A stretch of DNA of 19,514 bases from IMG/VR virus record IMGVR_UViG_3300035499_000465, positions 64,001-83,514 of that record, one strand, 5' to 3'. The DNA comes from a virus. Numbering within the stretch: the first letter of the stretch is position 1; each line of letters begins with the position of its first letter. The translations under genes and the position numbers were made by a program. Below are positions 97 through 17,618 of the stretch, piece by piece. The notes beneath the pieces were generated by a model. The model did not search any database, had not been told where the DNA came from, and saw nothing but the letters and a program-made list of their open reading frames with translations.

Positions 97-813
97 TTAA
101 CAACTACATCCATTAGAATAAGCTGCATATGGACTACATGTCAAATATGCAGGAACCGGACATGGACGAAGTTCATTTACTAAGTAAGCGTTCTGAGCGC
201 ATTGAGATAACTGGAAGTTAGCTGACTGTAGCTCATTGTTCTTAGCTTCTAATCTATCACGTAACTCTTGCATTGTATTAGCATTGATTAAAGCTCTTGT
301 TTGCTCAGCTTCTTCTCTAATAGCTTGAGTTATTTCACAAGTATTTCGAGAATTATCATATCTAACTGCATCTATATTGCGGTTTGTATCACAGCAACAA
401 GACTGCATTGCATAACGATTATCAGCTAAGTTAGCGTTTACTGTATTAAATCCTTGTGCGACAGAACTAAATCCTGTACACAAATCACGTTGCACATTAC
501 CAAAATTGGTTAATAGAGTTGTGTTGTTAGTATAGAATCCATCACAAAGTCCTTGCTGAATTCCTCTAACACCATTTTCTACATTCTGGAAGTTTAAGTC
601 TTGACTTAAATCTGCTCTAGTTAAGGCGCCCTGAGTTGCAGCTGAATTAGCTCCATTACCCCAGTTGCCTCCCCAACCTCCGCCCATAAAGACGAATAAG
701 AATAGGATTATAATCCACCAAGCTCCCATGCCATCTGTCCAGCCAGTTTCTCCACGATTTCCAGAAGCAGCTGCAATGTCTGATAATGAATATCCTGAAC
801 CCTGATTAAACAT
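97..813 (-). CDS. 238-aa membrane protein: one TM helix (GAWWIIILFLFVFMGG), then a Gly/Trp/Asn-rich stretch (GGGWGGNWGNG), a coiled-coil-like middle, a CCC triplet and a Cys-rich C-terminal tail (CPVPAYLTCSPYAAYSNGCSC). Function unknown.
   Basis: The ORF track gives 97..879, but the ATG at 813..811 is preceded by a perfect AAAGGAGG (829..821) with a 7-nt spacer. The upstream ATG at 879 has no RBS and lies inside the preceding gene, so the start was moved to 813. TAA stop at 97..99. Confidence 0.6.
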   Translation of the reverse strand: MFNQGSGYSLSDIAAASGNRGETGWTDGMGAWWIIILFLFVFMGGGWGGNWGNGANSAATQGALTRADLSQDLNFQNVENGVRGIQQGLCDGFYTNNTTLLTNFGNVQRDLCTGFSSVAQGFNTVNANLADNRYAMQSCCCDTNRNIDAVRYDNSRNTCEITQAIREEAEQTRALINANTMQELRDRLEAKNNELQSANFQLSQCAQNAYLVNELRPCPVPAYLTCSPYAAYSNGCSC

Positions 814-832
814 ATTGGTTCCTCCTTTTAAA

Positions 833-1072
833 TTACCTGAGACCAAGCATTTGTTTAAAATTACTAAATTCTTGGTCAAAATCTACACCTCTTTGTTGGC
901 ATAAATTTCTAGCTAATTGTTCAATACCTTTTGTATCATTAGCTTGCGCCATGCTTAAGAGGTTGTTACCCATAGGAGTTCCCTGCATTTGGCTTAAAAG
1001 ATTCATCATTAATTGTTGTGGATTTCCGCCATTTCTAATTAATTGAATAAACTGCATAGGATTAATATTCAT
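833..1072 (-). CDS. hypothetical 79-aa protein, Gln/Met/Asn-rich, no TM helix
   Basis: ATG at 1072..1070 preceded by AAGGAGGT (spacer about 6 nt). It is tightly packed with its neighbours: its last codons overlap the RBS of the downstream gene. Confidence 0.55.
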   Translation of the reverse strand: MNINPMQFIQLIRNGGNPQQLMMNLLSQMQGTPMGNNLLSMAQANDTKGIEQLARNLCQQRGVDFDQEFSNFKQMLGLR

Positions 1073-1084
1073 TATATTACCTCC

Positions 1085-1543
1085 TTAAAAGTTTAAATTT
1101 AATGGCTCTTTTGATTTTTCTTGTTCAGCTTTTTGCGGTTGCGGCTCGCTCATCGGGGTCGTCGATGCCGTAGAAGGTTGACTTAAAAAACTTTTTAATT
1201 GAGTCATAGCTATCTCAAATTCTTCTCGTGTTACATAAGCAGAACTATTCAACGGTGGTTCAACAGGCATTTCTTTTAATTCGTACATGTTTAGTGTGGC
1301 TGTGCCATCCATATTTATCTGCTTTGTGTAAATTTTTTTATTTGCCAAATCTGGAAAATAAAAAATCGAACCATCAAAATCTATTGTAGCAGCTCTCGCT
1401 TCTTCAATAGATGATACAGGTCTACCTTTTACAGTCGCCATCATCTGAGGACGTATCATCGAAGAAGGACTCTGCATCTGATTTTGATAGTATTGAGTTT
1501 GAGGTTGCATTTGGTTATAATAGCTATTATTTGTAGGATACAT
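1085..1543 (-). CDS. hypothetical 152-aa protein. The N-terminus is Q/N/Y/P-rich and low-complexity; the central segment is more ordered (VKGRPVSSIEEARAATIDFDGSIFYFPD...).
   Basis: ATG at 1543..1541 with GAAAGGAAG about 9 nt upstream. It is the first gene after the 237-nt AT-rich intergenic region and terminator. Confidence 0.6.
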   Translation of the reverse strand: MYPTNNSYYNQMQPQTQYYQNQMQSPSSMIRPQMMATVKGRPVSSIEEARAATIDFDGSIFYFPDLANKKIYTKQINMDGTATLNMYELKEMPVEPPLNSSAYVTREEFEIAMTQLKSFLSQPSTASTTPMSEPQPQKAEQEKSKEPLNLNF

Positions 1544-1779: not shown

Positions 1780-1811
1780 AAAAAAAAAAGGAACCTCAAT
1801 TAAGAGGTTCC
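1780..1811 (-). terminator. rho-independent terminator closing the radical-SAM cassette. The 8-bp stem ggaacctc (1790..1797) pairs with gaggttcc (1804..1811) across a 6-nt loop, and a run of 10 T follows on the transcribed (minus) strand (A-run 1780..1789 on plus).
   Basis: Perfect inverted repeat plus a U-tract, read directly. The TAA stop (1800..1802) and the last three codons of the 135-aa gene lie inside the hairpin. Confidence 0.7.
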
Positions 1812-2207
1812 CTTATTAACTTTTTGTTCATTTACTGTTGCTTCAATCATATTAGTAATATATATATCTAAATCTCCATAGGCTTCTTTAAGATAATTTT
1901 TAGCATCATCATTTAAAATACTTAATACTTTAGATAAGGTCTCTTGAAAAGCCGCTTCTTGAGCTTCTTTATCAAATGAGCCTTGTTGTTTTAAGCTATC
2001 TACATATGTTTGGTTTGTTGCAATTACGCAAGTCGTAATTGTATTGGTTAACATATCTGTATATTTTTTAGCTAATGCAGAATCAGATTCTGTATTAAAA
2101 GCTTCATTTTTAGCTTGAATGTATTTAACTAGATAAGTAGTTAAAACTCCAAGAAGAGGAATAATACATACCTCAAAAATTTTAGTTAATAATTCTAACC
2201 AATCCAT
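1800..2207 (-). CDS. 135-aa single-pass membrane protein. It has an N-terminal TM helix (LLTKIFEVCIIPLLGVLTTYLV) and a charged, helical C-terminal domain. It could be a holin-like protein or a cassette accessory or immunity protein.
   Basis: ATG at 2207..2205 with TAAGGAGT 5 nt upstream. It is the last gene before the terminator. The RBS overlaps the stop codon of the 317-aa gene, which suggests translational coupling. Confidence 0.6.
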   Translation of the reverse strand: MDWLELLTKIFEVCIIPLLGVLTTYLVKYIQAKNEAFNTESDSALAKKYTDMLTNTITTCVIATNQTYVDSLKQQGSFDKEAQEAAFQETLSKVLSILNDDAKNYLKEAYGDLDIYITNMIEATVNEQKVNKGTS

Positions 2208-2217
2208 TTTTTACTCC

Positions 2218-3171
2218 TTAATCCATAGAATAATAATTTTTAGGTGTATCAACTATTCCAACTCGAGAAGAATTTTTATCATTAATAAAAATTCCGTCTT
2301 GAGAAACAATTAAAGATAATACTTCAGCTTGACATTCTGGCTTAATAAAATAATATAAATATAATCCTAATAAATCTGAAGATGGAATAGTTCTTCCCTC
2401 TAATTTAAAATATTTATATCCCATCTTATTATATTCTTGCATTTCAGCTCTTGTTAAATTATTTCCTTTACCAAGAACGGAGGGGTGAGTAATATTCTCT
2501 TTAATTTTACATACACCTAAAACATTATAAGTATCTCGTAAATATGTAAGCTGAGCGATTCCAGTTTTTGCATAATGAGTTTTTCTAAAAGAGCAATTTG
2601 AACCGCAAATAGCATTACTTAAAAATTCGCATTTTCCACGCTTCTCTTTTGGAATTGCTTCCAATAATTCCTTATTTTTATTTAAATCATAATCTAAACA
2701 TACTTGATAATAATCTTTATCTAATTCTGCTAAGAAATCAGTAGGATTCGTTAAACGTTTAGTTGTTGAACTAATAATTTTATATCCAGGATAATTTTCT
2801 CTAATATATTGTTCCATAAGAGGAGAATTTACTACAACTTCATTACGGCCATTATCACAAACTTCTAACATTAAATTACCAAATCTGTCATCAAGATGCT
2901 CTTCTGTAATAACTGGATTAGTAAAAATTAATCTTAAAGCTACATTTCTATCTTTATAATCATTAACAACTTCTTCCATATATTCTCTAGTGCAATGCTC
3001 ATAACGAATAAAATTTCGTCCTCCATCCCAAATACAATAATGAAAATTACCAAAACAAGAACTAAAAGCTACATCATCATAAAAAAAATCTCTATGCTGT
3101 TCATATAAATTTAAAAAATATAAGTTCAAAGGTAAATGATCACTCGGTCCAGGTATATTAAAATATAACAT
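2218..3171 (-). CDS. 317-aa cytoplasmic protein, a paralogue of the adjacent 290-aa protein. It has a Cys-containing N-terminal segment (SSCFGNFHYCIWDGGR...EHC) and a C-terminal Cys cluster (CEFLSNAICGSNCSF...C). It may be a degenerate radical-SAM/SPASM-like auxiliary protein or a novel enzyme.
   Basis: ATG at 3171..3169 with AAGGAGG 9 nt upstream. It starts 2 nt after the stop of the 290-aa gene. The N-termini of the two proteins can be aligned (FNIPGP... versus YIIPNFF...). Confidence 0.65.
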   Translation of the reverse strand: MLYFNIPGPSDHLPLNLYFLNLYEQHRDFFYDDVAFSSCFGNFHYCIWDGGRNFIRYEHCTREYMEEVVNDYKDRNVALRLIFTNPVITEEHLDDRFGNLMLEVCDNGRNEVVVNSPLMEQYIRENYPGYKIISSTTKRLTNPTDFLAELDKDYYQVCLDYDLNKNKELLEAIPKEKRGKCEFLSNAICGSNCSFRKTHYAKTGIAQLTYLRDTYNVLGVCKIKENITHPSVLGKGNNLTRAEMQEYNKMGYKYFKLEGRTIPSSDLLGLYLYYFIKPECQAEVLSLIVSQDGIFINDKNSSRVGIVDTPKNYYSMD

Positions 3172-3172
3172 A

Positions 3173-4045
3173 TTATTTATCCTCCTTAATTGCGTTTAAA
3201 ACATCTTCATAAAATTTATAATATTCTATTTCAACATCTCTATTTTGTTCAAGTCTTTCTTGCGCCAATCCATTATGATTTGTGCTAAAACTATTTCCAG
3301 GAATTCTATCTTTCATTGCGGTTCCAAATAAAATATAGTCAGCATTATTTTTAACATAATTTATTTCAGCTATTGCCGTATCTACATCTTTTAGAGTTTG
3401 ACAATTCGGGCAACTAGAAAAAACACTTTGCTCTGAAAAATTTAATGTATTATTATTTTCAAGTTTTATACATCTTTTTAAATTTTTGCACTTATGGCAT
3501 ATTGCCATAGGAGAAAGTAAATAACATTTAAAGATATTTTTATTTTTTAATCCATAACAAGGATTTACATCTGTAGTAATAATACCTTTAATATTATTTG
3601 GATATTGGCTAATTAAAGAATTGATATCTTGAACAGAATGAAACATTGTATAATTTTGATGTAATACGATTTTAATTTTTGGATAAGTTTGTACTAAGTA
3701 TTCAATATATTCTGGAACACTGACTTCCCAATAAAAACGCGAATCTGTTGAAAATTTTTCTAAAATAACTTTTGCCATACAATTTTTGTAATCTGCCGGA
3801 ACAATATTCATATTACCATAATCTAATAAAATCATATCATCAATAATTTTATAAGCTTCCGCTCCGGCAATAAAATCTGGGTATAAAGAAATTTTTTCTC
3901 CTCTAATATTATTTAAGCTACCATTAAAATAAGAAAAAGAATATGTTCCTTGAACTCCAGCAAACTCATGAACTTGAATAAACTCATTAATTAATGCCAT
4001 ATTATATACATAGCTATCAAAAAAATTTGGTATAATATATTTCAT
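3173..4045 (-). CDS. 290-aa cytoplasmic protein, paralogue of the 317-aa protein. It lacks the CxxxCxxC motif but has a C-terminal Cys cluster (NPCYGLKNKNIFKC...CHKCKNLKRC...CPNC) that partially resembles a SPASM/twitch motif.
   Basis: ATG at 4045..4043 with GAAGGAGA 5 nt upstream. Sits immediately downstream of the internal promoter. The Cys spacing was read from the translation. Confidence 0.65.
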   Translation of the reverse strand: MKYIIPNFFDSYVYNMALINEFIQVHEFAGVQGTYSFSYFNGSLNNIRGEKISLYPDFIAGAEAYKIIDDMILLDYGNMNIVPADYKNCMAKVILEKFSTDSRFYWEVSVPEYIEYLVQTYPKIKIVLHQNYTMFHSVQDINSLISQYPNNIKGIITTDVNPCYGLKNKNIFKCYLLSPMAICHKCKNLKRCIKLENNNTLNFSEQSVFSSCPNCQTLKDVDTAIAEINYVKNNADYILFGTAMKDRIPGNSFSTNHNGLAQERLEQNRDVEIEYYKFYEDVLNAIKEDK

Positions 4046-4075
4046 AATAATCTCCTTCTTTTATATTATGAATAT

Positions 4076-4104
4076 ATTATACCAAAAAAAAGTTATTTCG
4101 TCAA
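4076..4104 (-). promoter_or_regulatory. internal sigma-A-type promoter with an extended -10. On the minus strand: TTGACG (-35; plus 4099..4104), a 17-nt spacer, then TGGTATAAT (extended -10; plus 4076..4084).
   Basis: Read directly from the 68-nt gap between the 233-aa and 290-aa genes. The -10 is perfect with the TG extension, the -35 matches at 5 of 6 positions and the spacing is ideal. It would drive the 290/317/135-aa genes. Confidence 0.45.
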
Positions 4105-4113
4105 GTTAAGTGC

Positions 4114-4815
4114 TTAATCAGCAAAATTTAAAGCTTCATCACCTTTGGTTAAAAGACCGCTATTAAAATCACCTTGAGCAAAATCTTGTAAATTTTCATC
4201 ATGAAGTCCTCTTTCAAGGGTATGATCTATAATTCTATTAATACAAACAAATAATTTATCTTGTTGATATAAAGACAATTCTGAACAATCAGTTAATCCG
4301 CAATAAAGTAAAACTGCGATTATCTCAGTATTAAAAATCCTATCTTCAGAAGATACAAAAAAATCATTTAAAATTTTTACAGCTTTTTCTGTTGTTGCTT
4401 CTGGAAAAGGAATTTCTTGTCCAATATAATGTTTAAATATTATATTTTTACAGACTTTAAATAAAGTTTGCTCATAAGTATCTTCTTCTTCAGATTCTGT
4501 TCTAACTTTTAATTCTTTTTCGATTGACGGATCATTATAAAAGCTATTAACAATATGAGCATTATATAATGAAATAAAATTTCTAAAATCAATAGAACGA
4601 ATTCTATCTTCTGGAGAAAATAATATGTAATAAATATAATAAATTAAAATTTCATTACATGGATGTAATACATCAATTACATATCCACTTTGAATAGAAC
4701 CTTTTAAATAAGATTCTACTTGTGGAATATATGAATAATTTTTATCCTCTATAATTGATTTACACATAGAATATAAAAACATATCATCAGAGCGTTGATA
4801 AGACATTTTTGACAT
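4114..4815 (-). CDS. 233-aa acidic cytoplasmic protein of unknown function, part of the radical-SAM cassette
   Basis: ATG at 4815..4813 with GAAAGGAA about 10 nt upstream. It overlaps the 3' end of the upstream radical-SAM gene by 29 nt, suggesting translational coupling. No recognisable motifs. Confidence 0.6.
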   Translation of the reverse strand: MSKMSYQRSDDMFLYSMCKSIIEDKNYSYIPQVESYLKGSIQSGYVIDVLHPCNEILIYYIYYILFSPEDRIRSIDFRNFISLYNAHIVNSFYNDPSIEKELKVRTESEEEDTYEQTLFKVCKNIIFKHYIGQEIPFPEATTEKAVKILNDFFVSSEDRIFNTEIIAVLLYCGLTDCSELSLYQQDKLFVCINRIIDHTLERGLHDENLQDFAQGDFNSGLLTKGDEALNFAD

Positions 4816-6157
4816 TTTTAATGTATTCCTTTCTCTCTTGATTTATTTTATGACTTTTTGCGACAATATCATAACAGTTATATTTTAATGCTACCTCATG
4901 GATAGATTTATAATAAACTTTATACATCTCACAAATTGTATCATTAGCTGTAAATAATTCTCTTTCATTTTCAAATTGAGATCCTAAACATCCTTTAGAA
5001 CAGAAAGATTTTAATTTACAAGCTGCACATTTCATAGTTGAACGATTTGGATTTAAAGTTTTAACTTTAAAAGCTAACATAGGTTTTTCAGCCTGCACCC
5101 CAGTAATTTTAGTATGATCTTCATCTGTTATCAATCTACCAAAAACAAAATTTTCATAACTAGTCCTATGACATGGAACTAATGCTAAATCTCCTAATCT
5201 CCAAATAGGTCCATTTTGAATAGAACAACTCATACTATGAACTGGACTAGGATAATCCAAAAGATCTGGTTGAATTCCTCCATGTTCAGAAAGAAACTGT
5301 TGCGGTCCACCAAACATTCCCAATGTGAAATCTTCAATATCTCCATGATAAATATCTTTAATATTTTTTTCTGCCATATATAATAAGAAGTCATGAAAGC
5401 TTTGAAGATTTTTTTCATCCCATTCATAAGGATCTCTTACATATAAGAACATTGGTAAATCTAAAACTTTTTTTCCATCTGGTCTAGTAATATACATATC
5501 ATATTTTATAATATTGTCAATCCACCAATCATAATTTTCTTTATAATTACGAACAAAATCAGCGGCAACCATAGGATGAAAAGTAAAATCATGTTTTTTA
5601 GCAAATTTAAAAATATTATCATAAAATTCATCAGACTTTCCATTACCATGATGATCTGGTCTAGTAAGCTCTTCCAAATTATTTGGCCCATCGATTGAAA
5701 AACTTAAATATAATGGACATTTTATTTTTTGTAATTTTTCTAACCAAATTTCAACTCTTTGAGTTTTTTCTTCATCTTTAATAAAAGTTCCATTTGTTGG
5801 AACTGAAATCTCTCTATATACATCTGGATAATGAGTTACTTTAAAATCATAAATAATTTGTAAAATGTCCTCCCAAAAGGGAAGCGCAAAAAATTCTCCT
5901 GAAAAGATATTAAAAGTGGTGTAATCATATCCTTCATCATATAAATATTGTAATAATAATTTAAAATTTGTCAAAATTAAATCTTTTTTATTATACTGCG
6001 GTGGATATAATTCTTTACCATGCTTCATTAAATAACAATATTCACATTTTTGATTACAACTTGAAGAAATAATAAATTCTACCATTGGAGCATTTTTACA
6101 ATATCGATCTAAAAAACTATTAAATAAAATATTTTGTTCTTCTTGATAAGTTGCCAT
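4787..6157 (-). CDS. radical SAM enzyme with a C-terminal SPASM domain (456 aa); a peptide/protein-modifying maturase of the anSME/sactisynthase-like family
   Basis: The [4Fe-4S]/SAM motif CNQKCEYCY (CxxxCxxC) lies near residue 34 and a GGE-like SGE is downstream. The C-terminus carries the canonical SPASM signature CAACKLKSFCSKGC (Cx2Cx5Cx3C), with an upstream C..G....C segment and a trailing Cys. ATG at 6157..6155 with AAAGGAGG upstream. It starts 1 nt after the stop of the 480-aa gene. Confidence 0.85.
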   Translation of the reverse strand: MATYQEEQNILFNSFLDRYCKNAPMVEFIISSSCNQKCEYCYLMKHGKELYPPQYNKKDLILTNFKLLLQYLYDEGYDYTTFNIFSGEFFALPFWEDILQIIYDFKVTHYPDVYREISVPTNGTFIKDEEKTQRVEIWLEKLQKIKCPLYLSFSIDGPNNLEELTRPDHHGNGKSDEFYDNIFKFAKKHDFTFHPMVAADFVRNYKENYDWWIDNIIKYDMYITRPDGKKVLDLPMFLYVRDPYEWDEKNLQSFHDFLLYMAEKNIKDIYHGDIEDFTLGMFGGPQQFLSEHGGIQPDLLDYPSPVHSMSCSIQNGPIWRLGDLALVPCHRTSYENFVFGRLITDEDHTKITGVQAEKPMLAFKVKTLNPNRSTMKCAACKLKSFCSKGCLGSQFENERELFTANDTICEMYKVYYKSIHEVALKYNCYDIVAKSHKINQERKEYIKNVKNVLSTL

Positions 6158-6160
6158 GTA

Positions 6161-7603
6161 TTATAAAACCTCCTTTACTTTGTATTCTCTTGCCACTCTA
6201 TCCAGCTCTGAAACAACTATATCCATTGCCCCATTATAAAAAAGTGGAATTTCTAGACAATTTCTAGTTGTCCAAGAGCCATTCATAATATAATTATCTT
6301 GTAAGCAAATAGAATTTTCCATAAAGGCAGGAAGTGTTTTTTCTATTTCAGCAATAGATGTATATTTAGGATCGATTAATCCTGCTTTTGCATATTCTCG
6401 AACAAATAAAATTAAATCTGTATATAAAATTTGATTTGGAGAAGTTTCAAAAGGAACCATCATATTATGTGCTTGGCGCATTTCTTCTGGGGTATATAAC
6501 CAATCTTTTGTATTATGCGCTCCGAAATATTTATCTGATAATCCATTTATTGAACCTTGTTTCTGAACATTATTAGCATATTCAACATATTCATCAAATA
6601 ATCCTCTGTGACACATAGTAAACATTCCTTTTGGAATTGGAACTATATTTCCAGTAAAAGATCCACATCCTCCACCACATTTAGGGTTACGATAACTTTT
6701 TCCTGCTTCTTCAAGGCTTCTATCCACTTGTACAGTTCCACAACGTTTACAAGAACTACGAGAGCTTAAACTTGTTAACCCGGTTATCGCAAGAGGAATT
6801 AATGTAACATCAGATCTCCAACTTTCACAAGTTTCTTGGATATATTTTTGACTATCTAAAATATTCTGATTAATTTTAGCATATGTATAGCCATCTTCTT
6901 TAGTCCATTCTGATGGACTAGCACAATTAAATACACTATTATGATAATTCCATTTTGCATTATTTTCTTTTTGCACTTGATATAATTCAGTGTCAAAAAA
7001 TGTATACCATTTAATACATTTTTCAGGCGTATCTAGAAAATGCATTGTTTCTTTTGATAAAGTTGGTTTAGTATGAACTGATAATATAATTTTTGAAGTA
7101 TCATAATCAATATCACATAAATCTCTAAAATTTTTTAAAAATTTTTCAGTTGTACCTTTACCTCTACCGAAATCATTCATTTCTGGATAGCCATCAATGG
7201 AAATTTGTAAATCAAAATTAAAATATACATTTCCATTATAATATTTCCCAATTTCTTTTAATAAATGCTCAATTATTTTAGCTTGATTTGGGATTGTAAA
7301 ATTAGTAGAAGTCATAATTTTATTAAAATTTGGAAATGCATCAAAATAGGCTTTTATATGGTCTGTAAAACGCTCCATATGTAAAAATGGTTCTCCTCCC
7401 CAAAGAGTAATTCCGTCTATTGTATTTCGAAGCTCTGGATCATAATCTAAAACTTGTTTAATATATTGATCATTTGCAAAATCTTGCTCAAGATCTTTAT
7501 CGATCTGAGCAAGTCCACCTGCGGCATCTTTGCAAATATAACAATATCCACAATTTAAATTACACAAAGCTGTTGTAAATAAAGTCATATTAGAAAAATT
7601 CAT
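6161..7603 (-). CDS. second, distinct radical SAM enzyme (480 aa) with a SPASM/twitch-like C-terminal Cys cluster; partner maturase
   Basis: CNLNCGYCY (CxxxCxxC) at residues 14..22 closely resembles the CNLKCTYCFY-type signature of anaerobic sulfatase-maturase-like SPASM enzymes. The GGEP motif LWGGEPFL is present. The C-terminal half has clustered Cys (C...G....C, CKRC, CGGGC, CHRG). ATG at 7603..7601 with AAGGAGA 5 nt upstream. Confidence 0.85.
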   Translation of the reverse strand: MNFSNMTLFTTALCNLNCGYCYICKDAAGGLAQIDKDLEQDFANDQYIKQVLDYDPELRNTIDGITLWGGEPFLHMERFTDHIKAYFDAFPNFNKIMTSTNFTIPNQAKIIEHLLKEIGKYYNGNVYFNFDLQISIDGYPEMNDFGRGKGTTEKFLKNFRDLCDIDYDTSKIILSVHTKPTLSKETMHFLDTPEKCIKWYTFFDTELYQVQKENNAKWNYHNSVFNCASPSEWTKEDGYTYAKINQNILDSQKYIQETCESWRSDVTLIPLAITGLTSLSSRSSCKRCGTVQVDRSLEEAGKSYRNPKCGGGCGSFTGNIVPIPKGMFTMCHRGLFDEYVEYANNVQKQGSINGLSDKYFGAHNTKDWLYTPEEMRQAHNMMVPFETSPNQILYTDLILFVREYAKAGLIDPKYTSIAEIEKTLPAFMENSICLQDNYIMNGSWTTRNCLEIPLFYNGAMDIVVSELDRVAREYKVKEVL

Positions 7604-7650
7604 ATTAATCTCCTTTTTCTCTTTTTATTTATTTAATTAATTATTTATTT

Positions 7651-9075
7651 TTACATATCAATACCTTCAACTTTAAAGGAATCGTAAAAAGTAACAAAAA
7701 ATCCACTAAAATTAGTTGGACAATGCGCTGACTTATTGCTTCCAAAGAAAGTCCCAAAATATGTAGTACAATAACTTCCAAAAGTATAATTTACTGCGGA
7801 ATGATATGTACTAAAAGTTGTAGTTGCAAAATTACTACAATTTCCAGCAAAATTTGTCGTACAAAAATCTCCATAAGTATAATTAACATTTGTAAAAAAT
7901 GTAGCATACTTAGGACTACAATAACTACTACAATGAGTTGCAAAAAAAGTATAATTTACACCATTAAAGAAAGTAGCATATCTAGGATTACAATAACTAC
8001 TACAATGTGCTGCAAAATAAGTATAATTTACACCATTAAAGAAAGTAGCATACTTAGGATTACAATAATTACTACAATGAGTTGCAAAATAAGTATAATT
8101 TACACCATTAAAGAAAGTAGCAAAATTTGTTCCAAAGTTAGTTGCATTTTTAGAAGAGTGAAAAGTTGCATTTTTAGAAGAATGATTTGTGTTACAAACT
8201 GAAATATGATTCGTATCATCTCTGCGGCAACTACTACTATAACTAAAACAATTCCATACTCCAGAATAATAAGTAGAATTTTTAGATTTAAAAAATGTTC
8301 CATGAAAAGTTCCATGAAAAGTAGCATGCTTAGAAGAATGTAATGTATTACAAAAACCACAGAAATTCCCGCAATGAGCTGCAAATGTATAATTCACTCC
8401 ACCAAAAAATGTATTACAAAAACCGCAATAATTTCCACAATGAGCTGCAAATGTATAATTTACTCCACCAAAAAATGTACTATAATTTCCTGTGCAATAA
8501 TTTGAACAAAGAGCAGCAAATGTATAATTTACACTATTAAAAAAAGTAGCATAACGTGCATCACAAAAGCTACTACAATGAGTAGCAAAAAATGTTGAAT
8601 CATGACTACTAAAATAAGTATAATTAACACTAGAGAAAACTGTTGTACATGTTTCTGTAGTGTGACTAGTATTAAAAGCTCCAAAATAAGTCGCGCAGAG
8701 AGGAGTATTCTGCCTATAAGATGTGAAATTATTTGAATTATAAGATCGACAAAGGCTCTCCATATACCCAATCGTTTTTTCAATTATAGAAACATTAGTA
8801 TATGCATTAATAACAACTCCTGCAGTAGCAGATGGCGTTCCAAAAGTTGTAATATTAGCACTATTTAAAAAAGATACTTTATCTTTAGTGTCACTAATTT
8901 GACTAAAAACATTAGTAACTCCAGTTGCAGGGGTAATTGAACTCCCCTGCAAACTTGGAACAGTTAATGACGCAACTCCAGCTGTTGAACGCATTGTATT
9001 TAATCTATTATAAAAATCTGAAATAGTGGACGCAGTAATTGAATTACCTTTATAAAATACTGTTCTTGTCGCCAT
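7651..9075 (-). CDS. 474-aa Cys-rich tandem-repeat protein. It has 26 Cys, 17 His, and many Tyr/Phe/Asn/Thr. About ten 24-aa repeats of the form TFFNGVNYT[YF]FA[AT]HC[SG][NS][YF]C[NS]P[KR]YA follow a 108-aa Ser/Thr-rich, Cys-free N-terminal region. It is the putative substrate or precursor of the adjacent radical-SAM enzymes.
   Basis: ATG at 9075..9073 (RBS GAGAGGG, spacer about 10). The repeats and residue counts were read from the translation; three consecutive units (aa 319..390) are nearly identical. No N-terminal hydrophobic signal. It lies immediately upstream of two radical-SAM/SPASM genes in one operon. Confidence 0.75.
   Translation of the reverse strand: MATRTVFYKGNSITASTISDFYNRLNTMRSTAGVASLTVPSLQGSSITPATGVTNVFSQISDTKDKVSFLNSANITTFGTPSATAGVVINAYTNVSIIEKTIGYMESLCRSYNSNNFTSYRQNTPLCATYFGAFNTSHTTETCTTVFSSVNYTYFSSHDSTFFATHCSSFCDARYATFFNSVNYTFAALCSNYCTGNYSTFFGGVNYTFAAHCGNYCGFCNTFFGGVNYTFAAHCGNFCGFCNTLHSSKHATFHGTFHGTFFKSKNSTYYSGVWNCFSYSSSCRRDDTNHISVCNTNHSSKNATFHSSKNATNFGTNFATFFNGVNYTYFATHCSNYCNPKYATFFNGVNYTYFAAHCSSYCNPRYATFFNGVNYTFFATHCSSYCSPKYATFFTNVNYTYGDFCTTNFAGNCSNFATTTFSTYHSAVNYTFGSYCTTYFGTFFGSNKSAHCPTNFSGFFVTFYDSFKVEGIDM
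7743..8628 (-). repeat. in-frame tandem coding repeats with a period of about 72 bp (24 codons) inside the Cys-rich gene. The most conserved block is 7906..8121.
   Basis: Recurrent DNA strings such as gtataatttacaccattaaagaaagtagcata recur at about 72-bp spacing. These explain the spurious repetitive antisense ORFs at 7801..8202 and 8343..8540. Confidence 0.7.
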
Positions 9076-9100
9076 TCTGGCTTAGCCCTCTCTTTCTTTT

Positions 9101-9424
9101 TTAATAAGTAAATACAAAATTTGGATATGGTTCACTGTACTCCTCTGCAGTTGTCATTCTCATCGCAATATTATCTAATCTAGTATATTTACTACTGTTA
9201 AAAATAATCCTTCCATCTTCTTCAATCACTTGAATAGATGAAATAGAATCTTTTACAAAATAAGGAACAAATTTTTCTACAATTTCTAGATTATATAAAT
9301 CTGCACCTACAACTGTTAGTATAAATCTAACCCCTTTTTCTGGTTCATCTGGGGCGATCCTAATATCTTCAGCGAAGTTGCGAATATTAATAATTAATTC
9401 TTCATTATTAAGATTTAATATCAT
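9101..9424 (-). CDS. 107-aa acidic hypothetical protein. It is the first gene of the cassette and may be a small accessory or chaperone-like protein.
   Basis: ATG at 9424..9422 with GGAGG 7 nt upstream. It sits directly downstream of a strong promoter-like element and 25 nt upstream of the repeat-protein gene. Confidence 0.55.
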   Translation of the reverse strand: MILNLNNEELIINIRNFAEDIRIAPDEPEKGVRFILTVVGADLYNLEIVEKFVPYFVKDSISSIQVIEEDGRIIFNSSKYTRLDNIAMRMTTAEEYSEPYPNFVFTY

Positions 9425-9450
9425 ATTAAAACCTCCATTGATTTATTTTT

Positions 9451-9479
9451 ATTATATCATAAAATTTAGACAAAGTCAA
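9451..9479 (-). promoter_or_regulatory. sigma-A-type promoter with an extended -10, in the gap between the tail-fibre stop and the 107-aa gene. On the minus strand: TTGACT (-35; plus 9474..9479), a 17-nt spacer, then TGATATAAT (TGn + TATAAT; plus 9451..9459).
   Basis: Read directly. The -35 matches at 5 of 6, the -10 is perfect with the TG extension and the spacing is ideal. It would give the cassette transcription independent of the late structural operon. Confidence 0.45.
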
Positions 9480-9483
9480 ATCT

Positions 9484-12400
9484 TTATTTAACTTTAATCC
9501 AAATACGACCATTAACTTTTATATTTCCAGTGCCCCAAACTTTATAATCTGGAATTTCAGACACCGTACCAATAATACGATCAGGATATTCTTTAATTTC
9601 TTCTCTTGTCATTAAAGAAACTGTTCCATCAGGACCGGAACAAACCGCATCTCCTGGTTTATATTTTTCTTTATCTTCATATGGATAAGCTAAAACTCTT
9701 CCCGATACAGCCAAAGGAGTTTTACATCGATTAGTTTCTCCAATAGCAAAACCATAAGTATCAGATATAATATTTGCTCCAGGCTGAAGTCTTTTTGTTG
9801 AATATTTAAGAGCTCCATGTCCAGTTTCTATTACACATCTTCCCGCTTCATCTTTAGCTTCAACATATCTAAACTCCGCATAATCATTCCATACTGCTCC
9901 ATATACTTTACTACCAGTTATTGTTCCACTAGCAGTTATATTAGATGAAGTATTCATAGTTCCATTAAAATAACTTGTACCATTTACATATAATTTATAA
10001 CTTGGAGTAGTTCCACTTGAAACCAATTTATTAATATAAACACAATTACTCTTTATCTGTAACGCTGGATTATCAGATCGTGCATTACCATCACTATCAA
10101 GATACCATTGACTGCCACCTTCAACTCTATTTCCAGTCCAGAAAATAAATGATGTAACAGATTGATTATTTACAAAGTTTAAAGCTTCATTACCACCGGT
10201 TCCATAATAAATATATGAATTATATGTACTTCCAGAAGGTCTAAATTCAATAGCTCTTATATTAGATGCATATATGGTTGTATTTGTATAATATGAGTAT
10301 CCGCTAACTTGTAAAGAAGGGACTATTGTAGTTTGAGTATTTGAAGAAGTTGTAATCAAATATGGCGAACTTAATGAAGTTGTGTTAATACCGATTTGAC
10401 TACTTGACATATAAATTGAGCCTGCTGCAGATACTGCATTTACTCCACTAAAATAAGCAGCTCGATTTGCAGTTCCACTATTAAGCGTTGAACTTAATGA
10501 ATAAGAACATTTTGTAATAGTACCAGAACTTAAATACACTGGGGCTGTACTAGATCCAACTGTTGAACTACTTTCTGTTGGAACTCCTGCACTTAAATAC
10601 CATAACTTTGTCCCACTACCTTTGGTCGATGTATATGCGCTAACTGTGGTTCCTGCAGAATAATAAGCTAATGAATTAACAGCTCCACTATTGACAGTTG
10701 CATTTAAACTATAAGTGCAAGCTGTTGGAACTCCTGCATTCCAATAGATTGGATTTGTAGCACTTCCATAAGAATCTGCTGTTCCAACATATAATTTACT
10801 CCATCTGTTTCCGCTTACACCAAGACTTTGAGCATTTGTATTTGTTGCTTCAGCTTTTATAGGAACTATATTACCAGATGTAGTTATTTGAGCACCAATT
10901 CTATTGGCGATAGTATCTGCATTTGCTTCTAAATTTATCGAGCCGTCAGATAATAAATATAGTGTTTCAGTTCCCGCGCTAACTAAACTTTGCATATTAC
11001 TAGCACTTTCACCTGCTCCGACTATAGTCATACCACCACCGCCGATAGAAATTCCATTTCCATAAGCATCAGAAGTATTATCCATAAATCGAATCATAGA
11101 TAAATGTGCATTTGTTCCATAATAATAAATATCGCCTTTTAAAGCAGTAGTACCATTAACATATAATTTATATCCTGTTACTGATCCGCCAATCATCAAG
11201 TTACTTGTTACTTGTAAATATCCACTTGATGATTCAATAATTCTACTTGTATAATCAGATGTACTATTACTAAAATGAAAATCTATATATGGGTTTGGGG
11301 CAGATAATTCAATGAAACCGCTTCCAACATATGTTCCCGCTACTCCGGAAACTCCTGCGGATGTAAAACTTGTACTACTAGAAACAAATAATACATTTGT
11401 ATATGTATTACTCCAATGTAAACTAGCTGTTCCTAAGGTATAACTACCATTACTAGCTGGCTGAATTATTTGTGAAGTTAAAGTATTATTTAATGTTTTA
11501 GCTCCATAAATAGTTTGAGTAGTATTAGTAATTAATCCTGTATGAGAAGAGTCATGAGCTGGAATAGTAACAGTTGTTATTTCTGAACCATTTTTAGCTT
11601 TACCATTTACAATTAAACTTGTTCCATTTGAAGTATTCAACCCTAATGTTGCAATATATCCTGCAACAATACTATTTCCATTAGCATCATTTGTTGCTCT
11701 ATCAGCTAAATAACTTCTATATGCAATATTTGTATTTGATATGGTCTGAGTTATAGTTCCAAGAGTTGTTGTAAATCCAATGCTCCATCCAGTCGCCCAT
11801 TTATCTTGACTATAATTAGTGTATCCAACAGTAAGATCTGAGATAGAAACCTGCGGATAATTCCATGTAGTTGTAGATTCACCAATATAAATTGCGCATT
11901 TACTTCCATCATGTCCAAATCTAACATTTAAATTACTTAAACCATATTCATATTTACCAATAGCTTGCGCAAATACGTTATACCAGCTTGGACTATCACT
12001 ACTATTATAATTATATCCACCAACTAAATATTCCACAGATCTTCCAGTTGAATAATCATAAATAGATACCTTAAAACGCATCATAGTACTAGTCCATGAT
12101 TGCGGCAAAGTAACTTTTAAGTATCCTGTTGCTGTTGAAGAAGTTGTGGCATAACTTCCGCCATCTGGAAAGGCAATATAATAATTAGATTTTCCGACTG
12201 CGGTTGTAGTTAAGTTACCATTTAACCACATTTTACCACTTGTGTTAATAGAAGCAACTCCACCAACACTGTTACGTCTAAATACCCATCCTCTATTATC
12301 TGTATTGCTCATGGTTATATAAGTAGCCCAATCGCCAGTTACATATCCATGTGTACCTGCGCTTGAAGTTTGTCTAAAAGTAATACCATAGTTTATAGGA

Positions 12401-15572: not shown

Positions 15573-15607
15573 TAGCCCTATCCTCCTTTTAAAATATCAA
15601 GCTTTTA

Positions 15608-17539: not shown

Positions 17540-17571
17540 TAATATAGTCCAATCCTTTCTATAATATTTTC

Positions 17572-17618
17572 GAGGGTGACATTTGCCACCCTCTTGTTCT
17601 TTCAAAATATTTTGAAAG
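17572..17618 (-). promoter_or_regulatory. two adjacent palindromes in the leader of the 643-aa gene. The first is a GC-rich hairpin: gagggtg (17572..17578) pairs with caccctc (17587..17593) around an 8-nt loop. The second is a perfect 20-bp AT palindrome, ctttcaaaatattttgaaag (17599..17618).
   Basis: Read directly. They are not followed by a U-tract on the minus strand, so they are more likely an operator or RNA-structure element than a terminator. Confidence 0.3.

What the first reader, a model, noticed from the sequence alone, without database searches (positions are those of the whole stretch)
1780..9479. Self-contained radical-SAM cassette inside a phage structural module
The cassette sits between the tail-fibre gene and a terminator. 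It is an eight-gene, co-directional unit:
- a 107-aa protein
- a 474-aa repeat protein with 26 Cys
- two different radical-SAM enzymes, both with CxxxCxxC plus a SPASM-type Cys cluster
- a 233-aa protein
- two paralogous Cys-cluster proteins (290 and 317 aa)
- a 135-aa membrane protein.

This is the architecture of a RiPP or protein cross-linking pathway (sactipeptide, ranthipeptide, streptide, triceptide, QhpC-like, anSME-like), but several things are unusual:
- the substrate is very large and repetitive
- two distinct SPASM-type radical-SAM enzymes are paired
- three unrecognisable partner proteins are present
- there is no leader peptidase or ABC exporter
- the whole thing is embedded in a phage late region, where lysis could replace export or the product could be virion-associated.

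I cannot assign it to a described family.
Basis: partly seen in the sequence, partly recalled or inferred. Interest (0 to 1): 0.85.

Follow-up and report, generated by a model that had tools for sequence, protein, structure and literature searches.

The report
Phage cassette that cross-links a repeat protein
A phage of gut anaerobes carries a movable seven-gene module. Two dedicated radical-SAM enzymes and two iron-sulfur-type helper proteins appear to chemically modify one large, fast-evolving repeat protein; the module is an undescribed relative of a bacterial anti-phage system and is widespread in gut phages.

Summary
The genes are real and co-directional on the minus strand. The unit is seven genes (2218-9424), not eight: the 135-aa membrane protein is the phage holin.

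**What the cassette contains**
- The 474-aa protein has a conserved ~110-aa N-domain, a hypervariable repeat region rich in aromatic residues, Ser, Thr, Asn and Cys, and a conserved C-terminal tail.
- rSAM456 has a full 7-Cys SPASM motif.
- rSAM480 has only three family-conserved auxiliary Cys (twitch-like).
- p290 and p317 are divergent U32-fold proteins with conserved Cys, resembling UbiU/UbiV.

**Conservation**
- The trio of precursor, rSAM-A and rSAM-B is conserved in 35 of 41 fetched loci. These come from 80-200 kb phages and prophages of gut Clostridia, at different genome positions.
- Distant homologues of the enzyme pair sit in a bacterial operon with bona fide HxsB and HxsD. They also sit next to HxS/YxS-repeat precursors and TatA/TatC.

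**Interpretation**
- It is most likely a phage-borne, distant variant of His-Xaa-Ser-type systems, in which radical-SAM enzymes mature a repeat protein.
- The product is probably a cross-linked protein, not a small peptide.
- Cys is not the conserved target.
- The chemistry and the biological role (superinfection exclusion, virion component or toxin) remain inferred.
- No description of this cassette was found in the searched literature.

The parts
9451..9479 (-). Promoter-like site (TTGACT-17-TGnTATAAT, 11 of 12) in the 59-bp gap between the 1787-aa gene and p107. Possibly the cassette's own promoter.
   Evidence: This is a consensus match only; promoter-like sites are not enriched overall (76 found against 61 +/- 9 in shuffles).
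9101..9424 (-). p107: small Cys-free, beta-rich protein that precedes the precursor in most related loci. Candidate partner or chaperone.
   Evidence: Homologues of 105-148 aa sit at the same position in L001-L012, L016, L027 and L046. No Pfam, NCBIfam, PHROG or PADLOC family matches.
8740..9075 (-). Precursor rep474, N-terminal domain (aa 1-112). This is the conserved recognition or 'leader' domain of the precursor family.
   Evidence: An HMM of this domain hits 35 loci plus the window, always on the same strand and next to the rSAM pair. It hits 26 clusters among 1.84 billion representative proteins. No known family matches.
7693..8739 (-). Precursor rep474, repeat region (aa 113-461). Composition: F 53, T 52, N 42, S 42, Y 33, C 25, H 17. 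Nine 22-24-aa repeats; presumed site of modification.
   Evidence: Aromatic-x-Ser/Thr motifs number 46 against 26.4 expected, with 0 of 1000 shuffles reaching that count. This is the most variable part of the cassette among 12 closely related phages: 82.5% identity against 93-97% elsewhere.
7651..7692 (-). Precursor rep474, conserved C-terminal tail (…FYDSFKVEGIDM) plus the stop codon.
   Evidence: The tail motif (F/Y)(K/T)VEG(I/L/V)D(F/M) is kept in P0242, P0247, P0262, P0263 and the L001 group, at 96.9% identity within that group. A related 'T(V/K)IDI' tail occurs in a second subfamily.
6161..7603 (-). rSAM480 ('rSAM-A'): radical-SAM enzyme with CxxxCxxC (C14, C18, C21). Only three auxiliary Cys are conserved across the family (C313, C331, C433), so it is twitch-like.
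   Evidence: The best partial HMM hits are GggB at 54 bits (cut-off 650), PapB at 43 bits (cut-off 340) and the twitch subfamily at 36 bits (cut-off 170). It has a full-length homologue in an HXS-type operon: 22% identity, E 2e-20.
4787..6157 (-). rSAM456 ('rSAM-B'): radical-SAM/SPASM enzyme with an invariant CNQKCEYCY motif and seven invariant auxiliary Cys (C311, C329, C377, C380, C386, C390, C409).
   Evidence: A family profile hits the SPASM domain of CteB (5wgg, 2e-6) and ChlB (9gm3). There are 140 homologous clusters at E <= 1e-10.
4114..4815 (-). p233: protein of unknown fold that overlaps the end of rSAM456 by 29 nt. A small protein always follows rSAM-B in related loci.
   Evidence: Positional conservation holds in phage, archaeal-bin and bacterial loci (97-233 aa). 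The sequences do not align convincingly, so homology is not established.
4076..4104 (-). Second promoter-like site (TTGACG-17-TGnTATAAT) in the 68-bp gap before p290.
   Evidence: consensus match only.
3173..4045 (-). p290: divergent paralogue of p317 (U32-like) with a Cys cluster at C183, C186, C192, C212 and C215.
   Evidence: It aligns with p317 family members, sharing the two invariant Cys. Homologues of 263 aa sit at the same position in L001-L012.
2218..3171 (-). p317: U32-fold TIM-barrel protein with invariant C189, C193 and C221 and polar residues. Candidate Fe-S enzyme (hydroxylase-like) or peptidase.
1800..2207 (-). Holin. It is adjacent and probably co-transcribed here, but it is NOT part of the cassette.
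   Evidence: phrog_13712 holin, E 4.5e-32. It has one hydrophobic segment. In L001-L012 it directly follows the large tail-fibre-like gene, with the cassette elsewhere.
1787..1814 (-). Terminator-like hairpin (11-bp stem, 5 GC pairs) followed by a T-run, overlapping the holin stop codon.

Best explanation
Positions 2218-9424 (minus strand) hold a self-contained, movable seven-gene phage module. It post-translationally matures one protein, rep474.

**Shown**
- rep474 belongs to a precursor family with a conserved ~110-aa N-domain, a hypervariable low-complexity middle and a conserved C-terminal tail.
- Across phages, this precursor is always encoded beside the same two dedicated radical-SAM enzymes: a twitch-like 'A' and a 7-Cys SPASM 'B'.
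- p290 and p317 are U32-fold paralogues with conserved Cys.
- Distant homologues of the A/B pair are embedded in a bacterial operon with bona fide HxsD and HxsB and an HxsA3-like substrate. Another pair lies beside HxS/YxS-repeat precursors and TatA/TatC.

**Inferred**
1. The N-domain docks the precursor on the enzymes, possibly with help from p107 or p233, as HxsD helps HxsC.
2. rSAM456 abstracts a hydrogen atom and makes side-chain cross-links in the repeats. The most likely products are carbon-carbon (cyclophane-type) links on the enriched aromatic-x-Ser/Thr motifs and, in this Cys-rich lineage, thioethers as well.
3. rSAM480 adds a second, HxsC-like modification.
4. The U32 pair acts as an accessory Fe-S enzyme, hydroxylating residues without oxygen as UbiU/UbiV do, or else as a processing peptidase.
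5. The product stays a protein. I think it most likely acts at the cell envelope in phage-phage or phage-host conflict, for example as superinfection exclusion, by analogy with HxsA blocking DNA entry. Attachment to the virion is the closest alternative.
For: **Enzymes**
- Searches give the family matches and Cys motifs described above.

**Linkage and mobility**
- Searches show the conserved cassette. One search shows the N-domain in 35 loci, adjacent to the pair and on the same strand.
- The cassette sits at different genome positions.
- Its GC content is 0.24-0.30 against 0.33-0.37 in the flanks.

**Precursor anatomy**
- define the three parts.
- A natural fusion of a Laminin_G_3 lectin domain to the precursor lies in the same gene context. 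This argues that the product is a protein rather than a released peptide.

**Motifs**
- Aromatic-x-Ser/Thr is enriched in the window protein: 46 against 26.4 expected, 0 of 1000 shuffles.
- Pooled over 33 precursor repeat regions, FxS occurs 127 times against 73 expected and HxS 69 against 42.

**U32 fold**
-.
- UbiU/UbiV are a U32 heterodimer that carries Fe-S clusters and hydroxylates without O2 (PMC6747719).

**Link to HXS**
- In L042: HxsD 59 bits (cut-off 50), HxsD_rel 65 (cut-off 41) and HxsB 507 (cut-off 370), followed by homologues of rSAM-A and rSAM-B.
- In L050: TatC, TatA, a precursor with 'SHLSGHLSGYLSSH' repeats, then the pair.
- The HXS system matures a repeat effector with two adjacent radical-SAM enzymes and blocks phage DNA entry (PMC13128918).
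Against: - No chemistry has been observed. Every HMM hit to a characterised maturase is partial and far below its cut-off.
- Neither Cys (0-25 per repeat region) nor aromatic residues (5-28%) are universal in the precursor family. No single target motif explains all members; L018 shows no aromatic-x-Ser enrichment.
- Internal repeats inflate the shuffle statistics.
- The window has no HxsD, HxsB or HxsC orthologue and no signal peptide, TM segment or exporter for the product. An envelope role in a Gram-positive host therefore needs lysis or an unknown route.
- The U32 pair is absent from several related loci (L030, L034, L036). Its Cys spacing is not the canonical U32 CX6CX15CX3/4C.
- Homology among the p107 and p233 families is weak or unproven.
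Confidence: 0.6

Rival explanations
1. Virion component. The modified rep474 is a structural protein, such as a fibre, decoration or adhesin, hardened by radical-SAM cross-links. The hypervariable middle would act as a host-range or immune-evasion surface.
For: - The cassette directly follows the largest putative fibre gene in the window and in GCA_016648615, and follows a tail-fibre-like gene next to the endolysin in L030.
- One relative is fused to a ConA-like lectin domain, which is typical of receptor-binding proteins.
- The N- and C-termini are conserved while the middle evolves fast.
- An intein in the rSAM-B of L037 suggests the gene is important to that phage.
Against: - In L027 the cassette lies among replication genes (gyrase, ligase, DnaB, RecJ), and in L001-L012 it is co-directional with dUTPase and RNR genes.
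- Homologous enzyme pairs occur in cellular chromosomes with HxsB/HxsD or Tat genes.
- No structural-protein family matches the precursor.
Confidence: 0.25
2. Classical multi-core RiPP. The repeats are many copies of a small core peptide. The radical-SAM enzymes cyclise them, the U32 'peptidases' cut them out, and holin-driven lysis releases an antimicrobial or signalling peptide.
For: - The tandem units are near-identical: three 24-aa units in the window and five exact 12-aa units in L038.
- The U32 family is formally a peptidase family.
- The cassette is adjacent to the holin.
- L027 has a core of only ~40 aa.
- The closest HMM families are RiPP maturases.
Against: - The conserved C-terminal tail and the lectin fusion imply that an intact protein is the product.
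- The U32 genes are missing in many loci that keep the precursor and both enzymes.
- Characterised U32 members with conserved Cys are Fe-S hydroxylases.
- Repeat units are not conserved even between near-identical phages.
- There is no immunity or export gene.
Confidence: 0.12
3. Ordinary auxiliary metabolic genes. The two enzymes would be housekeeping-type radical-SAM enzymes (anaerobic sulfatase maturase, HemN-like or MoaA-like), unrelated to the repeat protein.
For: rSAM456 has a partial hit to the anSME model (46.8 bits), and both enzymes have weak MoaA or viperin core hits.
Against: - All such scores are far below the cut-offs (46.8 against 349).
- Linkage to the N-domain precursor is conserved in 35 loci.
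- rep474 contains no sulfatase gene and no C-x-P-x-R motif; it has C-x-P-(K/R)-Y instead.
Confidence: 0.02

Closest known systems
His-Xaa-Ser (HXS) system: HxsD-HxsB-HxsC-HxsA (TIGR03976-03979). It is an anti-phage defence that blocks DNA entry (PMC13128918).
   Same: - Two adjacent radical-SAM genes, one of them SPASM-type.
- A small partner protein.
- A protein substrate that combines a non-repeat domain with short aromatic/His-x-Ser repeats.
- The product remains a protein effector.
- Homologues of this window's enzyme pair lie in one operon with true HxsD and HxsB and an HxsA3-like substrate.
- 9 of the 17 His in the rep474 repeat region are in H-x-S.
   Different: - The enzymes are not HxsB or HxsC orthologues: 14.6 and 18.5 bits against cut-offs of 370 and 268.
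- There is no HxsD.
- The precursor N-domain is a new family with no peptidoglycan-binding domain or signal peptide.
- The repeat region is 360 aa rather than five repeats.
- A pair of U32-fold proteins is added.
- The cassette is carried by phages of Gram-positive Clostridia rather than by Pseudomonadota chromosomes.
Triceptides: three-residue cyclophane-forming radical-SAM/SPASM enzymes (XyeB, GrrM/OscB, FxsB, YhhB, ChlB).
   Same: - rSAM456's best NCBIfam hit is YhhB (E 1.5e-12), and GrrM, XyeB and FxsB are also listed.
- Its best PDB sequence hit is ChlB.
- The substrates are repetitive and rich in aromatic-x-x motifs, including F-x-S, the FxsA motif.
   Different: - The matches cover only the radical-SAM core and score about a tenth of the family cut-offs.
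- The substrate is a 474-aa protein with a 110-aa N-domain.
- Some family members have almost no aromatic residues.
- A second dedicated radical-SAM enzyme is always present.
Sactipeptide and ranthipeptide maturases (CteB, PapB, GggB) and QhpD/QhpC protein thioether cross-linking.
   Same: - The SPASM domain of the rSAM456 family matches CteB (5wgg, 2e-6).
- rSAM480's best hits are GggB and PapB.
- The window substrate has 25 Cys in its repeat region.
- QhpD is a precedent for a radical-SAM enzyme cross-linking a protein subunit rather than a peptide (from general knowledge).
   Different: - Cys is not conserved in the precursor family; L023 and L038 have none in the repeat region.
- No RRE domain was detected.
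- Scores are far below the cut-offs.
UbiU/UbiV and other Fe-S U32 proteins (RlhA, TrhP): O2-independent hydroxylases.
   Same: - U32 fold.
- Two adjacent paralogues, like the UbiU-UbiV heterodimer.
- Conserved Cys: one N-terminal plus three around residues 189-221, reminiscent of UbiV's CXnCX12CX3C.
- Anaerobic hosts.
   Different: - The sequence is barely detectable as U32 (15.4 bits against a cut-off of 22.4).
- The Cys spacing differs: C189-x3-C193-x27-C221.
- The substrate would be a protein.
- No Fe-S binding or activity has been shown.
Proteusins and other NHLP/Nif11-leader RiPPs.
   Same: A very long (~100 aa) conserved N-terminal region precedes a hypervariable, Asn/Ser/Thr/Gly-rich modified region, and radical-SAM tailoring enzymes are present.
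   Different: - There is no sequence similarity to NHLP or Nif11 leaders.
- A conserved C-terminal tail is present.
- No leader protease or exporter is encoded.

Membership tests
Radical SAM superfamily (PF04055) | CxxxCxxC cluster motif and a Pfam score above the gathering cut-off | tested here: met
   Both enzymes score about 37 bits against a cut-off of 29.5. The motif is invariant or nearly invariant in both family alignments.
SPASM subfamily (TIGR04085 / PF13186) | Seven-Cys auxiliary motif (C…C, then CX2CX5CX3C, then C) binding two extra clusters | tested here: met
   rSAM456 has C311, C329, C377-x2-C380-x5-C386-x3-C390 and C409, all invariant in 12 diverse homologues. The TIGR04085 HMM scores only 23.8 bits against a cut-off of 27. 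The motif is therefore met while the HMM score is just below cut-off.
SPASM subfamily (TIGR04085 / PF13186) | The same seven-Cys motif in the second enzyme (rSAM480) | tested here: not met
   Only C313, C331 and C433 are invariant across the family. There is no SPASM HMM hit, but there is a partial hit to the twitch subfamily (36 bits against 170). This lineage has extra Cys at 285, 288 and 309, whose role is unknown.
His-Xaa-Ser (HXS) system | HxsB orthologue (TIGR03978, cut-off 370 bits) | tested here: not met
   rSAM456 scores 14.6 bits.
His-Xaa-Ser (HXS) system | HxsC orthologue (TIGR03977, cut-off 268 bits) | tested here: not met
   rSAM480 scores 18.5 bits.
His-Xaa-Ser (HXS) system | HxsD small partner protein (TIGR03976 / PF27806 / NF038315) | tested here: not met
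   No hit for p107 or p233 in Pfam or NCBIfam at E <= 0.1.
His-Xaa-Ser (HXS) system | Substrate with His-Xaa-Ser repeats | tested here: inconclusive
   No HxsA model hit. However, 9 of the 17 His in the repeat region are H-x-S and 13 of 17 are H-x-[ST]. Aromatic-x-[ST] is enriched. The cellular relative L050 has explicit HLS/HRS/YLS repeats.
His-Xaa-Ser (HXS) system | Two adjacent radical-SAM genes next to the substrate gene, and a genomic tie to true Hxs genes | tested here: met
   The adjacency holds in the window. Homologues of both enzymes lie in one operon with HxsD, HxsD_rel, HxsB and an HxsA3-like protein in L042 and L043.
Triceptide (3-CyFE) RiPPs | Maturase scoring above a family cut-off (YhhB 445, XyeB 450, GrrM 310, FxsB 370) | tested here: not met
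   rSAM456 scores 47.1, 23.2, 33.1 and 16.3 bits respectively, covering the N-terminal core only.
Triceptide (3-CyFE) RiPPs | Aromatic-X-X motifs in the substrate, joined by a C-C cyclophane link | not testable with these tools
   The motifs are present and enriched. The cross-link itself needs mass spectrometry or NMR.
Sactipeptides / ranthipeptides | Conserved donor Cys in the substrate family and a maturase above cut-off | tested here: not met
   Family repeat regions have 0-25 Cys. PapB scores 43 and 40 bits against a cut-off of 340; GggB scores 54 against 650.
Anaerobic sulfatase-maturating enzyme | TIGR03942 at or above 349 bits, and a C/S-x-P/A-x-R target | tested here: not met
   Scores are 46.8 and 27.6 bits. 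rep474 has C-N-P-K/R-Y, not C-x-P-x-R.
Peptidase U32 family (PF01136) | U32 TIM-barrel-like fold | tested here: met
Peptidase U32 family (PF01136) | Pfam gathering score | tested here: not met
   p317 scores 15.4 bits against a cut-off of 22.4. 4 of the 120 listed homologues carry a precomputed PF01136 hit.
Peptidase U32 family (PF01136) | Four conserved Cys binding a [4Fe-4S] cluster (CX6CX15CX3/4C or the UbiV-like CXnCX12CX3C) | tested here: inconclusive
   Three Cys are invariant (C189, C193, C221), plus a mostly conserved C46, with different spacing. Cluster binding was not tested.
Phage holin (phrog_13712) | HMM match and a hydrophobic segment | tested here: met
   E 4.5e-32 over residues 8-131. 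The maximum hydropathy (1.92) is at the N-terminus.
Diversity-generating retroelement target | A template repeat nearby and variation confined to adenine-derived changes | tested here: not met
   No second copy of the variable region lies within the held flanks, up to 10 kb each side, in the window, L002, L019 or L036. Third-codon-position changes are as common as first and second. A reverse transcriptase was not searched for beyond the loci held.

The most novel reading that the evidence does not exclude
Phages of gut anaerobes carry their own version of an HXS-like 'matured repeat protein' weapon. The phage would make a protein whose binding domain is coupled to a long array cross-linked by radical-SAM enzymes. 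The U32 Fe-S pair might also hydroxylate that array without oxygen, giving a DOPA-like, adhesive or protease-proof polymer. The phage would deploy it at the cell wall or on the virion to block rival phages' DNA entry or to armour the particle. This would be the first radical-SAM-matured protein effector encoded by a virus, and the first protein substrate for U32 hydroxylases.
Probability: 0.2. Interest if true: 0.9.

Novelty: new variant of a known kind. Interest (0 to 1): 0.72.

Why it matters
- **Protein-sized substrates in viruses.** It would show that radical-SAM RiPP-type chemistry is applied to whole proteins by viruses, not only to small peptides by bacteria.
- **A testable link to a new defence system.** It connects the just-characterised HXS anti-phage system to a large, unstudied set of phage cassettes in the human-gut Clostridia virome. 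The link is directly testable because the two systems share enzyme-pair homologues.
- **A clear experimental entry point.** The cassette offers one substrate, two enzymes and optional accessory proteins, including a U32 pair whose family has very few known functions.
- **A role for a fast-evolving phage gene.** It may explain a conspicuous, fast-evolving gene in many 80-200 kb gut phages.

Tried and rejected
- **GenBank phages.** Nucleotide and protein searches with the whole window, rSAM456 and rep474 found nothing at E <= 1e-3. Relaxed searches found only unannotated human-faecal contigs for p317 and weak radical-SAM-core matches in jumbo enterobacterial phages.
- **rep474 in the 5.8-billion-protein index.** One hit only.
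- **p317 folded without an alignment.** The model was useless (pLDDT 36). It was repeated with a 58-sequence alignment.
- **AlphaFold-database fold library.** Not available.
- **Profile-to-PDB searches.** Nothing was found for the U32-like family or the N-domain.
- **DGR hypothesis for the hypervariable region.** Rejected.
- **Housekeeping reading (anSME, HemN, MoaA).** Rejected on scores and conserved linkage.
- **PADLOC.** Only generic viperin-core hits.
- **Large repeat proteins P0261 and P0265.** They matched the N-domain only through low-complexity artefacts.
- **The 'small protein after rSAM-B' and p107 as families.** Attempts to align them gave no convincing homology.
- **Rfam.** No RNA family in the window.
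- **Literature.** Searches on phage RiPPs, U32 with radical SAM, YcaO in phages and SPASM in virions returned no description of this cassette.

Full report
**Observation**

All long ORFs in the window lie on the minus strand. From 9424 down to 1800 there are eight tightly packed genes of 107, 474, 480, 456, 233, 290, 317 and 135 aa. They follow a 1787-aa gene (9484-14847). A terminator-like hairpin with a T-run overlaps the last stop codon (1814-1787). Strong promoter-like sites lie before the first gene (9479-9451) and before p290 (4104-4076). The block has a lower G+C content (0.24-0.30) than its flanks (0.33-0.37).

The 474-aa protein has 26 Cys. It contains nine 22-24-aa repeats anchored on 'VNYT', and these are visible at the DNA level as arrays of 72 nt and 66 nt. 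The description is therefore accurate in outline.

**Gene identities**

- **The two enzymes.** Both pass Pfam Radical_SAM and are unrelated to each other beyond the CxxxCxxC motif.
  - In an alignment of 12 diverse homologues, rSAM456 has an invariant CNQKCEYCY motif and seven invariant auxiliary Cys in the SPASM pattern.
  - rSAM480 keeps only three auxiliary Cys across its family, which makes it twitch-like.
  - NCBIfam lists only partial, core-region hits to RiPP cross-linking maturases: YhhB, anSME, PapB, DynA and GrrM for rSAM456, and GggB, PapB, twitch and CefB for rSAM480. All score about a tenth of the family cut-offs.
  - The rSAM456 family profile matches the SPASM domain of CteB, and the single sequence matches ChlB.
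- **The 135-aa protein.** It is a holin (phrog_13712, E 4.5e-32).
- **p290.** It is a divergent paralogue of p317 that shares the invariant Cys pair.
- **p107, p233 and the 474-aa protein.** They match no family in Pfam, NCBIfam, PHROGs or PADLOC.
- **The 1787-aa 'tail fibre'.** It has no family match. Only its C-terminal ~150 aa are conserved in the large, variable proteins that precede the holin in related phages.

**Related loci**

IMG/VR holds 25 loci with homologues of rSAM456, in viral contigs of 15-196 kb, most of them 80-196 kb. In every one where the sequence is available, a homologue of rSAM480 lies immediately upstream.

In thirteen phages at about 50% identity (L001-L012 and L024), the order is p107-like, precursor, rSAM-A, rSAM-B, a ~225-aa protein, U32a, U32b. 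This is the window's seven-gene order. There, however, the cassette lies elsewhere and on the opposite strand. The large fibre-like gene, the holin and the three genes that follow the holin in the window are contiguous in those phages. The holin is therefore not part of the unit, and the seven genes move as a module.

Other contexts were also found:
- The window's arrangement recurs in a GenBank metagenome contig.
- In L027 the cassette sits among gyrase, ligase, DnaB and RecJ genes.
- The species-representative genome collection places relatives in gut Clostridia bins (Roseburia, Lachnospiraceae, Oscillospiraceae, Faecalibacterium). One lies in a 429-kb contig of the isolate Clostridiales Family XIII bacterium PM5-7.
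- GenBank 'Bacteriophage sp.' contigs from human faeces carry p317 homologues.

**The precursor family**

Proteins upstream of the enzyme pair share a ~110-aa N-terminal domain. An HMM of this domain finds it in 35 of the 41 loci fetched up to that point. It is always on the same strand as the pair and adjacent to it. The exceptions are truncated contigs, one divergent precursor placed after the enzymes (L030), one locus without a precursor (L034) and one spurious hit.

After the N-domain comes a low-complexity region of 40 to 360 aa. A short conserved C-terminal tail closes the protein. In the window's subfamily it reads (F/Y)(K/T)VEG(I/L/V)D(F/M); in another subfamily it reads T(V/K)IDI.

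Among 12 closely related phages the precursor keeps exactly 413 aa. Its middle region is the most variable part of the cassette, at 82.5% mean identity against 92.7% for the N-domain, 96.9% for the tail and 94-97% for the enzymes. This is not diversity-generating-retroelement mutagenesis: no template repeat is present, and synonymous third-position changes are equally common.

Pooled over 33 precursors, the variable regions contain S 16%, N 15%, T 11%, G 9%, F 8%, H 5%, Y 4.5% and C 3.5%. Cys ranges from 0 to 25 per protein and aromatic residues from 5 to 28%. Cys cannot therefore be the family's conserved target.

Spaced motifs are over-represented: F-x-S (127 against 73 expected), H-x-S (69 against 42) and N-x-S/T. 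In the window protein, aromatic-x-Ser/Thr occurs 46 times against 26 expected, and none of 1000 shuffles reached that count. Internal repeats inflate these statistics.

One relative, P0263, fuses a Laminin_G_3 lectin domain to the distal part of the N-domain, a W/S/N/C-rich repeat region and the 'FTVEGLDF' tail. A p107-like gene lies upstream of it and rSAM-A downstream. That fusion, together with the conserved tail, argues that the end product is a protein and not an excised peptide.

**Accessory genes vary**

- U32-like genes occur in 0-3 copies.
- YcaO (PF02624, E 1.7e-30) is present in L019, and similar genes lie in L015 and L037.
- GT2-like glycosyltransferases occur in L013, L031, L035 and L037.

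The invariant core is the precursor, rSAM-A, rSAM-B and a small downstream protein. That small protein is conserved in position but does not align.

**Link to a known system**

The rSAM456 family has 140 homologous clusters at E <= 1e-10, including members on cellular contigs.

- **L042 and L043.** On a 539-kb bacterial contig, one tightly packed operon encodes the following, in order:
  - HxsD (59 bits, cut-off 50);
  - an HxsD-like protein (65 bits, cut-off 41);
  - HxsB (507 bits, cut-off 370);
  - a TPR protein;
  - an HxsA3-like protein that is membrane-anchored and rich in H, Y, N, D and G;
  - full-length homologues of rSAM480 (E 2e-20) and rSAM456 (30% identity);
  - a 167-aa protein.
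- **L050.** On a 291-kb cellular contig the order is TatC, TatA and other small ORFs, then two precursors, then rSAM-A fused to a GT1 glycosyltransferase, then rSAM-B. One of the precursors carries 'SHLSGHLSGYLSSHLSGH…YDSSYDSSY' repeats.
- **L044.** A contig binned as Thorarchaeota, which looks viral, has two Y/D/T/G-rich precursors before the pair.

The His-Xaa-Ser system was shown in 2026 to be an anti-phage defence. HxsB, HxsC and HxsD mature the repeat protein HxsA through N-terminal processing and a +8 Da modification on an SHRSS motif. The matured protein blocks phage DNA entry from the periplasm (PMC13128918).

The window's enzymes are not HxsB or HxsC orthologues (14.6 and 18.5 bits), and the window has no HxsD. 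This is a relationship of kind and of genomic association. It is not membership of the HXS family.

**Mechanism**

*Shown:* a movable seven-gene module; a dedicated precursor and enzyme-pair association; the SPASM and twitch-like Cys patterns; the U32 fold with conserved Cys; and a hypervariable, motif-rich middle region between conserved ends.

*Inferred from the properties of these families:*
1. The N-domain serves as the docking element.
2. rSAM456 forms side-chain cross-links in the repeats. These would be cyclophane-type links on aromatic-x-Ser/Thr motifs and, in this Cys-rich lineage, possibly thioethers.
3. rSAM480 adds a second modification.
4. The U32 pair is an accessory enzyme. It would either be an Fe-S hydroxylase like the UbiU-UbiV heterodimer (PMC6747719) or a processing peptidase.

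None of the cassette proteins has a signal peptide or TM segment. In this phage the product could therefore leave the cell only at lysis, which the adjacent holin would provide, or by assembling into particles.

My estimates for the biological role are:

| Role | Probability |
|---|---|
| Envelope-acting conflict effector (superinfection exclusion or similar) | ~0.35 |
| Virion-associated component | ~0.25-0.3 |
| Released peptide antimicrobial | ~0.1-0.15 |
| Something else | remainder |

**Novelty and verdict**

Six full-text searches on phage RiPPs, U32 with radical SAM, YcaO or SPASM in phages, and triceptides in phages found no description of this cassette. The library searched is limited to open-access papers and bioRxiv.

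The cassette is best filed as a new, phage-borne variant of radical-SAM systems that mature repeat proteins. It sits between the HXS system and triceptide or sactipeptide RiPPs. Its distinguishing features are a new precursor family, a constant two-enzyme core and an unusual U32-fold pair.

The gene count, the emphasis on Cys, the 'both SPASM' statement and the late-region context do not.

Noticed in passing
L027, L046, L015, L037, L038 (related loci): Cassette genes in several related phages are interrupted only by in-frame TAG codons; the L027 rSAM-A has 13. Where the window protein aligns, it has Gln at those positions. These phages therefore appear to read TAG as an amino acid. The window itself uses the standard code.
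   Followed up: partly
L037:8729-11200: The rSAM-B homologue is 823 aa instead of about 470. An insertion that looks like an intein ('C|LTGDTEILL…') begins immediately after the CxxxCxxC cluster motif.
   Followed up: no
window 7624-7650: A (TTTA)x6.8 microsatellite fills the 47-bp gap between the precursor gene and rSAM480. Such tracts can change length and alter downstream expression.
   Followed up: no
window 97-1543: No recognisable endolysin follows the holin. Instead there is a conserved trio of unknown function (152, 79 and 260 aa; phrog_21718 and phrog_16490) that accompanies the holin in related phages. The 260-aa protein has a hydrophobic segment, a Gly/Trp-rich stretch and a Cys-rich C-terminus.
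   Followed up: partly
window 9484-14847: The 1787-aa putative fibre has no Pfam or PHROG match. Only its last ~150 aa are conserved (56-77% identity) in relatives, whose corresponding proteins range from 650 to 1670 aa. This pattern suggests a modular, exchangeable receptor-binding protein.
   Followed up: partly
window 14985-17605 and 17870-19417: p195 and p665 share a ~146-aa domain (30% identity). p665 has weak Hoc-like and Ig-like head-decoration hits. p515 carries BspA-type leucine-rich repeats (PF13306, E 3.8e-15).
   Followed up: no
window 7801-8202 (+), 8343-8540 (+): The antisense ORFs inside the precursor gene, which are rich in I, T, S, K and C, are mirror images of the repeat codons. 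They are almost certainly not genes.
   Followed up: no
L026, L048, L049: Three independent assemblies of the same or a near-identical phage break inside the repeat gene. The repeats evidently defeat short-read assembly, so this gene family is probably under-represented or truncated in metagenome catalogues.
   Followed up: no
L050:4488-6980 and L050:1614-2666: In a cellular relative, rSAM-A is fused to a GT1 glycosyltransferase and TatC/TatA lie just upstream. Together with the GT2 genes in several phage loci and the excess of N-x-S/T motifs, this hints that the repeat region is also glycosylated and, in cells, exported by the Tat pathway.
   Followed up: partly
Erwinia, Salmonella and Cronobacter jumbo phages (e.g. 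NC_019929, NC_021531): These jumbo phages carry one or two annotated radical-SAM genes that weakly match the core of rSAM480 (about 27% identity over 180 aa). It was not checked whether they sit beside a repeat protein.
   Followed up: no
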